Virus record (IMG/VR): IMGVR_UViG_2537562172_000006
Origin: a virus
Taxonomy: Duplodnaviria > Heunggongvirae > Uroviricota > Caudoviricetes
Strand: one strand, 5' to 3'
DNA length: 64,000 bases
Made by a program: the position numbers. Positions 45,001-48,000 of the stretch are shown piece by piece (position 1 is the first letter of the stretch; each line of letters begins with the position of its first letter).

Positions 45001-48000
45001 AACAGTAACATTAAAAAGGCCGGGAATTTAAGAGCGTTGATAGTTCATGAAATCAACTCCGGTGAATTTGAGTATTTAAGACGTTTTCCCCAGTCCAGCA
45101 CTGGGGCAAAAATGGTGACAACTAGGGTCATAAAAACGTTCGGCGAGCTTTGTGATATCTGGACAAAAATTAAAGAGACAGAGTTAACAACAAACACAAT
45201 GAAGAAAACGAAATCACAATTAAAAACACTCAGGATAATAATTTGTGAGAGTACCCCTATATCACATATTCGTTATAGCGATATCTTAAACTACCGGAAT
45301 GAACTGCTGCATGGAGAAACGCTTTACCTGGATAATCCAAGATCCAACAAAAAAGGAAGAACCGTGCGCACAGTTGATAACTATATCGCCCTGCTCTGTT
45401 CGTTGTTACGTTTTGCGTATCAGTCGGGATTTATATCAACCAAACCATTTGAAGGAGTAAAAAAATTACAGCGAAACAGAATAAAGCCAGACCCGTTATC
45501 TAAAACAGAATTCAATGCATTAATGGAAAGTGAAAAAGGACAGAGCCAAAACTTGTGGAAATTTGCCGTTTACTCCGGGCTTCGTCACGGGGAACTTGCA
45601 GCTCTGGCGTGGGAGGATGTGGATTTCGAGAAGGGAATTGTGAATGTCAGAAGAAACCTGACGATACTTGATATGTTCGGTCCCCCAAAAACAAATGCCG
45701 GGATCCGGACGGTAACATTACTGCAGCCGGCTCTTGAAGCACTGAAGGAGCAATACAAACTGACCGGGCATCATCGCAAAAGCGAAATCACTTTTTATCA
45801 TCGGGAGTACGGCAGAACTGAAAAGCAAAAACTGCATTTTGTTTTCATGCCCAGGGTGTGTAACGGAAAACAGAAACCTTATTACTCGGTAAGCAGTTTG
45901 GGTGCGAGATGGAATGCAGCTGTAAAACGTGCTGGTATTCGCCGTCGTAATCCGTACCATACGCGACATACTTTTGCCTGCTGGCTGTTGACGGCAGGAG
46001 CGAACCCGGCATTTATAGCCAGCCAGATGGGGCATGAAACTGCGCAGATGGTGTATGAAATTTACGGTATGTGGATTGATGACATGAACGACGAACAGGT
46101 AGCTATGTTGAATGCGCGGTTATCGTAGTTGCAAAGTTTGCCCCCAATTTGCCCCATTTAGTACCAGAGAACTGAAATAATGCAAGAAAATCAAAAGAAT
46201 ACGAAGAAAGAGATATACAACCTGAACAAATTACAAAAACGTCTGCGTCGTAACGTGGGCGAAGCCATTGCTGACTTCAATATGATTGAAGAAGGCGATC
46301 GCATCATGGTTTGCCTCTCCGGGGGTAAAGACAGCTATACCATGCTGGAGATTCTGCGCAATTTGCAGCAAAGCGCGCCAATCAATTTTTCGCTGGTGGC
46401 TGTTAACCTCGATCAAAAGCAACCGGGCTTCCCGGAACACGTTCTGCCCGAGTATCTTGAAAAGCTGGGCGTTGAGTACAAGATTGTTGAAGAGAATACT
46501 TACGGTATCGTGAAAGAGAAGATTCCAGAGGGCAAAACCACTTGCTCACTGTGTTCTCGCCTTCGTCGCGGTATCCTTTATCGTACCGCAACGGAACTGG
46601 GGGCGACGAAGATCGCGTTGGGTCACCATCGTGACGATATCCTGCAAACGTTGTTCTTAAATATGTTCTACGGCGGTAAGATGAAAGGTATGCCTCCGAA
46701 ACTGATGAGCGATGATGGCAAACATATCGTTATTCGTCCGCTGGCCTACTGCCGCGAGAAAGATATTCAGCGATTTGCCGATGCAAAAGCGTTCCCGATT
46801 ATTCCGTGCAACCTGTGCGGTTCACAGCCTAACCTGCAACGTCAGGTGATTGCTGACATGTTGCGTGACTGGGATAAACGTTATCCAGGGCGTATCGAGA
46901 CGATGTTCAGCGCGATGCAGAATGTGGTGCCGTCGCATCTGTGCGATACCAACCTGTTCGATTTCAAAGGCATCACCCACGGTTCTGAAGTGGTTAACGG
47001 GGGTGATCTGGCGTTTGATCGCGAAGAGATCCCACTACAACCGGCGTGCTGGCAGCCAGAAGAAGATGAAAATCAGTTGGATGAGTTACGGCTGAATGTG
47101 GTTGAAGTGAAATAACCAGGATAGCGCCCGATGCGCAAGCGTATCGGGCTACTCTTATGGAGGCCGGATAAGACGCGGCCAGCGTCGCATCCGGCAATCC
47201 CGAATAAGATGTTTACTCTTGCACCCGGCAATTCAACATTTCATTATTTTAATAACCGCACCCGGCACGTTTTTCCTTTAATCTTCCCGCCCTGTAACTG
47301 TTTCCATGCTTTATGAGCAACAGCCTGACGGACCGCGACATAGACATGCGCCGGATGCACGGCGATTTTGCCAATATCTGCGCCATCACTGTCAGTGCAC
47401 CTAATACATCACCCGGGCGCATTTTGGCTTTTTTCCCGCCATCGATACACAACGTTGCCATTTCTGCTTCCAGCGTCGCAATGGAACTATTAGCTGGCGG
47501 CGTTTGCCAGTTAAGTTTTATCTGCAACATGTCAGAAATGATATTGGCCCGCTGTGCTTCTTCCGGAGCACAGAAACTGATCGCCAGACCGCTATTTCCT
47601 GCACGAGCTGTACGACCGATGCGATGTACATGAACTTCAGGGTCCCACGCCAGCTCAAAGTTCACCACCAGCTCAAGCGATTTAATATCCAGACCACGCG
47701 CAGCAACATCAGTCGCGACCAGTACACGGGCGCTACCGTTAGCAAAACGTACCAGGGTCTGATCGCGATCGCGTTGCTCCAAATCGCCGTGTAATGACAA
47801 TGCACTTTGCCCTACTTCATTCAGCGCGTCGCAGACAGCCTGGCAATCTTTTTTGGTATTGCAAAACACCACGCAAGAGGATGGCTGATGCAAGCTTAAT
47901 AACCGTTGCAACAGAGGAATTTTGCCTTTGCTGGATGTCTCATAAAATTGTTGTTCAATGGGTGGCAAAGCATCTGTTGAGTCAATTTCAATCGCCAAAG

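What the first reader, a model, noticed from the sequence alone, without database searches (positions are those of the whole stretch)
47244..47400. dbpA carries a 3' frameshift that replaces the C-terminal RNA-binding region
The ORF is DbpA through ...GGKKAKMRPGDVLGALT and then reads VMAQILAKSP...GCGY. The canonical ending GKIAVHPAHVYVAVRQAVAHKAWKQLQGGKIKGKTCRVRLLK is encoded intact in another frame and ends at 47244. The segment between the two is 17 nt where the K-12 protein needs 30, consistent with a 13-nt deletion. The C-terminal domain gives DbpA its 23S rRNA hairpin specificity, so this allele may have lost target recognition.
Basis: partly seen in the sequence, partly recalled or inferred. 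Interest (0 to 1): 0.45.

Follow-up and report, generated by a model that had tools for sequence, protein, structure and literature searches.

The report
Clonal 13-bp frameshift deletion in dbpA
A small clone of pig-pathogenic E. coli (the window matches strain STEC_S1191) carries a real 13-base deletion that frameshifts the end of the ribosome-assembly helicase gene dbpA and destroys most of its rRNA-targeting domain; this is an ordinary strain-specific gene inactivation in a gene that laboratory knockouts show to be dispensable.

Summary
On the minus strand, dbpA (47249..48604) is 100% identical to K-12 DbpA for residues 1-405. It then lacks 13 nt (GAGATATCGGGCT; junction 47389|47388). The reading frame shifts into a 46-residue unrelated basic tail, while native residues D411-K457 stay intact in the -1 frame, ending at 47244.

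It is very unlikely to be an assembly error. The identical allele occurs on 9 public contigs. The four examined, which include the apparent source of the window (AFEA01000010.1, E. coli STEC_S1191, O139:H1, stx2e), are identical over the 5.4-kb core but carry different prophages at ttcA. The allele is absent from all 5,393 complete E. coli genomes that hold this region, from the GTDB species representatives and from the JGI metagenomes.

The Pfam DbpA RNA-binding domain falls from 73.6 bits to 20.5 bits, below its cut-off. Published structures show that the lost part includes Y426 and L456, which pack the domain onto RecA_C; Y426 mutants are insoluble. The most likely outcome is loss of hairpin-92 targeting, and probably a null allele. 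It is tolerated because dbpA knockouts show no phenotype. No recoding signal was found. This is a recent, clonal, ordinary pseudogenisation of low interest.

The parts
47249..48604 (-). Frameshifted dbpA reading frame (451 codons plus TAA stop at 47249-47251; GTG start at 48602-48604)
   Evidence: The exact protein is GenBank EGX18606.1 from E. coli STEC_S1191.
47462..48604 (-). Residues 1-381: intact DEAD-box helicase core (RecA_N, RecA_C and linker L2), 100% identical to K-12
   Evidence: Pfam DEAD 170.4 bits and Helicase_C 107.3 bits; 405/405 identity to K-12; core boundary at residue 381 from PMC2248767.
47390..47461 (-). Residues 382-405: the retained N-terminal third of the RRM / RNA-binding domain, ending at T405
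   Evidence: Pfam PF03880 matches only profile positions 1-26 of 72 (residues 384-409, 20.5 bits, below the 25.6 cut-off). T405 is part of the hairpin-92 binding site (PMC8536315).
47388..47389 (-). Deletion junction: 13 nt (GAGATATCGGGCT, covering K-12 codons G406-L410) are missing between G47389 and T47388
   Evidence: alignment to K-12 ER1821R; coordinates; same gap against the closest complete genome, rl0044.
47252..47389 (-). 46 out-of-frame codons (VMAQILAKSPCIRRMSMSRSVRLLLIKHGNSYRAGRLKEKRAGCGY; 11 K/R, 1 D/E) that replace native residues 406-457
47244..47387 (-). Native C-terminal coding sequence D411-K457 plus stop, intact but in the -1 frame. That frame is open upstream only to the TGA at 47411-47409.
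   Evidence: The nucleotides are identical to K-12.

Best explanation
This is a genuine, recent, clonally inherited 13-bp deletion in the chromosomal dbpA gene of a small E. coli lineage. The window is identical to the contig of the O139:H1 edema-disease strain STEC_S1191.

The deletion removes codons 406-410 plus one base, so translation leaves the native frame after T405 and adds 46 unrelated basic residues. The product keeps the complete DEAD-box core and the first 24 residues of the C-terminal RRM. It lacks the last 52 of the RRM's 76 residues.

The RRM tethers DbpA to hairpin 92 of 23S rRNA and allosterically activates the core. Its beta-sheet, through Y426 and L456, also packs on and stabilises RecA_C. 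The encoded protein is therefore expected to have lost rRNA-specific binding and activation, and is probably poorly folded or degraded, which would make this a functional null allele.

The lineage tolerates it because dbpA is dispensable under laboratory conditions.

Shown here: the deletion, the frameshift, the loss of the domain signature, its presence in several independent assemblies, and its absence elsewhere. Inferred: loss of activity, instability, and a near-neutral fitness effect.
For: Deletion and frameshift.

Domain loss: PF03880 drops from 73.6 to 20.5 bits, below its cut-off.

Real allele rather than artefact: the exact 451-aa protein is on 9 public contigs. These include AFEA01000010.1 (100% identical to the window over 7,356 nt), FZJW01000006.1, the 4.77-Mb contig UGEZ01000005.1 and an independent Logan assembly of run ERR8651872. 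All four examined are identical to the window over the 5,390-nt dgcM-zntB-ynaL-dbpA-ttcA core. They differ at the ttcA prophage site: no prophage in UGEZ01, and 63 differences in the integrase region in ERR8651872.

Clean local assembly: 18.8 kb differ from strain rl0044 by 3 SNPs plus this deletion, with no homopolymer indels.

Recent event: there is no secondary decay. Residues 1-405 and the out-of-frame 3' end are identical to K-12, and the closest complete genomes carry the intact gene.

Rarity: 0 of 5,393 complete genomes, 0 in the GTDB representatives, 0 in the JGI metagenomes.

Function, from the literature: the RRM confers hairpin-92 specificity and the isolated YxiN core binds RNA weakly and non-specifically (PMC2248767). 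RRM-bound HP92 stabilises the closed active state. Y426, T384, C386 and L456 pack on RecA_C, Y426A/D give no soluble protein, and isolated RecA_C is unstable (PMC8536315). The knockout has no discernible phenotype (PMC8536315; PMC2248767).
Against: No raw reads, transcript or protein data could be examined, so expression and stability of the 451-aa product are untested.

The isolated core of the orthologue YxiN is reported to retain ATPase activity, so the product need not be fully inert.

The new tail is strongly basic (11 K/R in 46 residues) and could give some non-specific RNA affinity.

The 3' end of dbpA is present in 5,393 of 5,426 complete genomes. That hints at selection for the gene in nature, so the loss may not be strictly neutral.

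The 9 contigs are not proven to represent 9 independent isolates; at least three distinct genomes are demonstrable.
Confidence: 0.85

Rival explanations
1. The 13-nt gap is a sequencing or assembly artefact of the S1191 draft genome, and the strain really has intact dbpA.
For: The source is a 2011-era draft assembly (AFEA01; PMC3491183). No reads could be inspected. No complete RefSeq genome carries the deletion.
Against: The identical allele is present in independently produced assemblies, including a 4.77-Mb contig and a Logan assembly of a separate run. These represent at least three genomes with different prophage content at ttcA. A 13-nt loss in non-repetitive sequence is not a typical platform error (own knowledge). 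The surrounding 18.8 kb has no other indel against rl0044.
Confidence: 0.03
2. The allele encodes a stable protein with altered function. An intact DEAD-box core is fused to a new, highly basic, unstructured tail that tethers RNA non-specifically. DbpA would then act as a general RNA-dependent ATPase or chaperone, in the manner of helicases with basic tails, possibly with a selective benefit in this pig-adapted clone.
For: All core motifs are intact. The tail has 11 K/R against 1 D/E in 46 residues. The isolated YxiN core retains ATPase activity (PMC2248767). The allele has persisted long enough for carriers to diverge in prophage content.
Against: Isolated DbpA RecA_C is unstable without the RRM, and loss of the single interface residue Y426 already gives insoluble protein (PMC8536315). 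The orphaned N-terminal RRM fragment is likely to misfold. The tail is an accidental out-of-frame reading with no sign of selection. The allele is very rare. The structure prediction was uninformative.
Confidence: 0.1
3. Programmed or fortuitous -1 ribosomal frameshifting downstream of the deletion, for example a P-site slip at A_AAA (GCA AAA TCG read as GGC AAA ATC, 47369), restores the native C-terminus. This would give a 453-aa DbpA in which GDIGLDGADIG is replaced by VMAQILA.
For: The native frame is open from 47408 through the native stop, so any -1 slip in that stretch would rejoin it. An A_AAA tetramer lies in frame at 47369.
Against: There is no canonical X_XXY_YYZ heptamer in the productive overlap. 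The only one in the gene, C_CCG_GGT at 47417, shifts directly into the TGA at 47411-47409. There is no homopolymer of 6 or more for transcriptional slippage. No stimulatory element is known or expected, because the site arose by accident. A four-base site would give only background-level slippage (own knowledge). The restored protein would still carry a shortened, altered segment at the hairpin-92 site.
Confidence: 0.02

Closest known systems
E. coli K-12 DbpA (b1343; solved structures 7PLI, 7PMM, 7PMQ, 7BBB)
   Same: It is the same locus with the same neighbours (ttcA, ynaL, zntB, dgcM). Residues 1-405 are 100% identical. The DEAD and Helicase_C domains are intact.
   Different: It lacks native residues 406-457, which is 52 of the 76 RRM residues and includes interface residues Y426 and L456. 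In their place is a 46-residue out-of-frame tail.
Engineered core-only constructs of the DbpA orthologue YxiN (B. subtilis)
   Same: A helicase core without a functional RRM. The literature reports weak, non-specific RNA binding with residual ATPase activity (PMC2248767).
   Different: The natural allele keeps an orphaned third of the RRM and adds a basic nonsense tail. For E. coli DbpA the RecA_C domain is reported to be unstable without the RRM (PMC8536315), so behaviour may be worse than that of a clean truncation.
Laboratory dbpA deletion strains of E. coli
   Same: Expected loss of DbpA function. The deletions show no growth or ribosome-maturation defect (PMC8536315; PMC2248767).
   Different: This is a spontaneous allele fixed in a natural pathogenic clone, not an engineered deletion. 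The open reading frame remains and could still be expressed.
Lineage-specific frameshift pseudogenes in clonal bacterial pathogens
   Same: A single small indel in an otherwise intact, conserved, non-essential gene. It is confined to a narrow clone and shows no secondary decay.
   Different: Nothing distinctive was found. The only unusual point is that the deletion has no flanking microhomology.

Membership tests
DEAD-box RNA helicase (superfamily 2) | Two RecA-like domains with the conserved DEAD-box motifs | tested here: met
   Pfam DEAD PF00270 170.4 bits (residues 27-192) and Helicase_C PF00271 107.3 bits (228-336), the same as K-12; 405/405 identity to K-12.
DbpA/YxiN subfamily (hairpin-92-specific helicases) | Complete C-terminal RRM-like DbpA RNA-binding domain (Pfam PF03880) | tested here: not met
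   Only profile positions 1-26 of 72 match, at 20.5 bits against a curated cut-off of 25.6. K-12 scores 73.6 bits over positions 1-71.
DbpA/YxiN subfamily (hairpin-92-specific helicases) | Orthologous position in the genome (ttcA - dbpA - ynaL - zntB) | tested here: met
   RefSeq annotation of K-12-type ER1821R and of rl0044 at the aligned locus; the same gene order in the window and in L003-L006.
DbpA/YxiN subfamily (hairpin-92-specific helicases) | ATPase and helicase activity specifically stimulated by 23S rRNA hairpin 92 | not testable with these tools
   This needs purified protein and RNA. Loss is predicted from the literature.
Frameshift pseudogene / null allele | Reading frame disrupted relative to orthologues by an indel whose length is not a multiple of three | tested here: met
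   A 13-nt deletion relative to K-12 and rl0044. All 5,393 complete genomes holding the region have the longer form.
Frameshift pseudogene / null allele | The lesion is real (reproducible in independent sequence data) | tested here: met
   The identical allele is on 9 contigs. The four examined come from different assemblies, with at least three distinct prophage states at ttcA. Raw reads were not inspected.
Frameshift pseudogene / null allele | No compensating recoding signal and no separately translatable remnant | tested here: met
   No productive slippery heptamer, no homopolymer of 6 or more, and no Shine-Dalgarno sequence before the GTG at 47360.
Frameshift pseudogene / null allele | Loss of protein function or accumulation in vivo | not testable with these tools
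   The AlphaFold single-sequence model was uninformative (mean pLDDT 33.9). Biochemistry is required.

The most novel reading that the evidence does not exclude
The frameshift is a natural separation-of-function allele and not a dead gene. The intact DbpA helicase core, freed from hairpin-92 tethering and carrying a new basic tail, would accumulate and act as an untargeted RNA-dependent ATPase or chaperone (or perturb 50S assembly). It would have been retained in the O139:H1 edema-disease clone because it confers some advantage.
Probability: 0.05. Interest if true: 0.35.

Novelty: new member of a known kind. Interest (0 to 1): 0.1.

Why it matters
It matters only modestly. The allele is a natural, clonally fixed inactivation of DbpA's rRNA-targeting domain in a veterinary pathogen. 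This fits the long-standing observation that dbpA knockouts have no laboratory phenotype, even though the gene is retained in about 99% of complete E. coli genomes.

The 13-bp junction could serve as a lineage marker for this subclone. The strain would also provide a natural background for asking under what conditions DbpA matters. For annotation, the GenBank entry EGX18606.1 should be read as a frameshifted product and not as a normal DbpA.

Tried and rejected
(1) Assembly error: rejected, because the identical allele occurs in independent assemblies with different prophage content and the surrounding 18.8 kb has no other indel against rl0044.

(2) Common polymorphism: rejected; 0 of 5,393 complete genomes carry it. 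Exact-junction scans of the GTDB species representatives and the JGI metagenomes found nothing.

(3) Slippage between direct repeats as the cause of the deletion: the junction has no microhomology. From my own reading of the K-12 row, the nearby imperfect repeat AGATAT...AGATAT is 21 nt apart and would give a 21-nt in-frame deletion, not 13. The mutational mechanism is left unexplained.

(4) Recoding or restart: there is no productive slippery heptamer, no long homopolymer and no Shine-Dalgarno sequence before the internal GTG. [quoted passage not shown]

(5) Structure prediction of the 451-aa allele without an alignment gave mean pLDDT 33.9 with no residue above 50, so it is uninformative and was not used.

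(6) The paper on the YxiN RRM-RNA complex (PMC2942969) is not held. RNA-contact information was taken from PMC8536315 instead.

(7) A literature search for a prior description of this lesion found nothing relevant.

(8) The promoter/terminator scan around dbpA showed nothing that bears on the finding.

Full report
OBSERVATION.

On the minus strand the window holds a 451-codon ORF (47249..48604, GTG start). It reads as DbpA up to ...GGKKAKMRPGDVLGALT and then continues as VMAQILAKSP...GCGY*. The canonical DbpA ending (...DGADIGKIAVHPAHVYVAVRQAVAHKAWKQLQGGKIKGKTCRVRLLK*) is encoded intact in a different frame and stops at 47244.

An alignment with the K-12-type gene of strain ER1821R shows a single clean 13-nt gap. 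GAGATATCGGGCT is missing between CTGACAG and TGATGGCG, and every other aligned base in the roughly 250-nt alignment is identical. The junction lies between window positions 47389 and 47388.

Residues 1-405 are 405/405 identical to K-12 DbpA.

IS IT REAL?

The 3' end of dbpA is present in 5,393 of 5,426 complete E. coli genomes. Every one aligns with the 13-nt gap; the best identity of 96.5% equals 361/374. The allele is therefore not a common polymorphism.

Even so, the exact 451-aa frameshifted protein is on record on 9 public contigs. It is deposited as EGX18606.1 from E. coli STEC_S1191 and as STM02491.1.

The window is 100% identical over 7,356 nt to AFEA01000010.1, the S1191 contig. S1191 is an O139:H1, stx2e strain from a pig with edema disease (PMC3491183).

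Three further assemblies were compared with the window: FZJW01000006.1, the 4.77-Mb contig UGEZ01000005.1, and an independent Logan assembly of run ERR8651872. All are base-for-base identical to the window across the 5,390-nt dgcM-zntB-ynaL-dbpA-ttcA core. They differ at and beyond the prophage attachment site at the 5' end of ttcA:
- FZJW01 has 3 differences inside the prophage.
- UGEZ01 has no prophage there.
- ERR8651872 has 63 differences in the integrase region.

That makes at least three distinct genomes sharing one core haplotype and one deletion, which points to a single origin in a clone.

The closest complete genome is pig isolate rl0044. Over 18.8 kb it differs from the window by 3 SNPs and this deletion only, with no homopolymer indels. 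The local assembly quality is therefore good, and the deletion is recent relative to the split from intact-dbpA relatives.

Exact-junction scans of the GTDB species representatives and the JGI metagenomes found nothing. An assembly artefact is thus very unlikely, although raw reads could not be inspected.

WHAT IT DOES TO THE PROTEIN.

Pfam finds the DEAD and Helicase_C domains unchanged. The DbpA RNA-binding domain (PF03880) drops from 73.6 bits (profile positions 1-71 of 72) in K-12 to 20.5 bits (positions 1-26), below the 25.6-bit cut-off.

From the literature:
- The N-terminal 381 residues are the ATPase core, and the C-terminal 76 form a basic RRM that gives specificity for hairpin 92 of 23S rRNA.
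- The isolated YxiN core binds RNA weakly and non-specifically but keeps ATPase activity (PMC2248767).
- In E. coli DbpA the RRM beta-sheet packs on helix alpha-3 of RecA_C through Y426, T384, C386 and L456.
- Y426A and Y426D yield no soluble protein.
- T405 is part of the hairpin-92 site, which is formed mainly by RRM helix alpha-1.
- RRM-bound hairpin 92 stabilises the closed, active conformation (PMC8536315).

The allele keeps RRM residues 382-405, which include T384 and C386. It loses the other 52 of the 76 RRM residues, including Y426 and L456.

My inference is that hairpin-92 tethering and activation are lost, and that the protein is probably misfolded or degraded. That would make this a functional null and not merely an untargeted helicase. 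A single-sequence AlphaFold model was too poor to add anything (mean pLDDT 33.9).

WHY IT IS TOLERATED.

[quoted passage not shown] Only the over-expressed R331A mutant is harmful, and it works by staying bound to the nascent ribosome (PMC8536315; PMC2248767; PMC2770675). My inference is that an allele without a functional RRM should not be dominant-negative in this way. The lesion therefore looks like a nearly neutral pseudogenisation in a clonal pathogen.

There is no secondary decay. The out-of-frame 3' end is still identical to K-12, which is consistent with a recent event.

RIVALS.

(a) Assembly error: see above; about 3%.

(b) Stable altered-function protein, with the core joined to a basic non-specific tail. 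This is not excluded, because the YxiN core retains ATPase activity and the tail is basic. It is disfavoured by the instability data for E. coli DbpA. About 10%.

(c) Recoding. The native frame is open from 47408 onwards, so a -1 slip would rejoin it. However, there is no productive X_XXY_YYZ site. The only heptamer, C_CCG_GGT at 47417, leads straight into the TGA at 47411-47409. There is no homopolymer of 6 or more, only an A_AAA tetramer at 47369, and no Shine-Dalgarno sequence before the GTG at 47360. About 2%.

COMPARISON AND NOVELTY.

The locus is unquestionably the dbpA orthologue, by synteny and by 100% identity over residues 1-405. The encoded product nevertheless fails the feature that defines the DbpA/YxiN subfamily, a complete RRM.

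The kind of event, a small frameshifting indel in a dispensable gene confined to a narrow clone, is entirely familiar. The sequence has been public since the S1191 draft genome, and I found no paper describing the lesion.

The mutational mechanism is not explained, because the junction has no microhomology. The nearby AGATAT repeat would predict a 21-nt loss, not a 13-nt one; that is my own reading.

VERDICT.

The biology is ordinary and the interest is low.

Noticed in passing
window 27258..28476 (- strand): A toxin-like gene pair in the lysis region of the prophage. A 241-aa ORF (27751..28476) matches Pertussis_S1 (56.7 bits), Scabin-like and Enterotoxin_a. It is followed by a 160-aa ORF (27258..27740) whose counterpart in strain rl0044 is annotated 'subtilase family AB5 toxin binding subunit'. 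From memory it resembles the ArtAB / E. coli pertussis-like AB5 toxins.
   Followed up: partly
window ~52284..64000: Synteny with the closest complete genome (rl0044) ends just past smrA, at about 52284-52292. The remaining ~11.7 kb matches a mobile element seen in pig ETEC genomes, with DNA primase, AntA/AntB antirepressor, DUF2213 and ProQ/FinO-family genes.
   Followed up: partly
window 1..~46180; L005 and L006 beyond locus position 5391: A large prophage occupies the window up to the Rac attachment site at the 5' end of ttcA. The first 25 kb hold tail and terminase genes and a gene annotated 'anti-CBASS Acb1 family'. Carriers of the dbpA deletion are polymorphic here: there is no prophage in UGEZ01 and a divergent integrase region in ERR8651872.
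   Followed up: partly
window 31145..33498: This short stretch of the prophage did not align with rl0044, although the flanks on both sides did (26167-31145 at 99.5% and 33498-52292 at 99.9%). That suggests a mosaic replacement inside the prophage.
   Followed up: no
window 48634..48807 (- strand): A 57-aa proline-rich small ORF lies immediately upstream of dbpA. It corresponds to the RefSeq-annotated small protein YnaL and is intact here.
   Followed up: no
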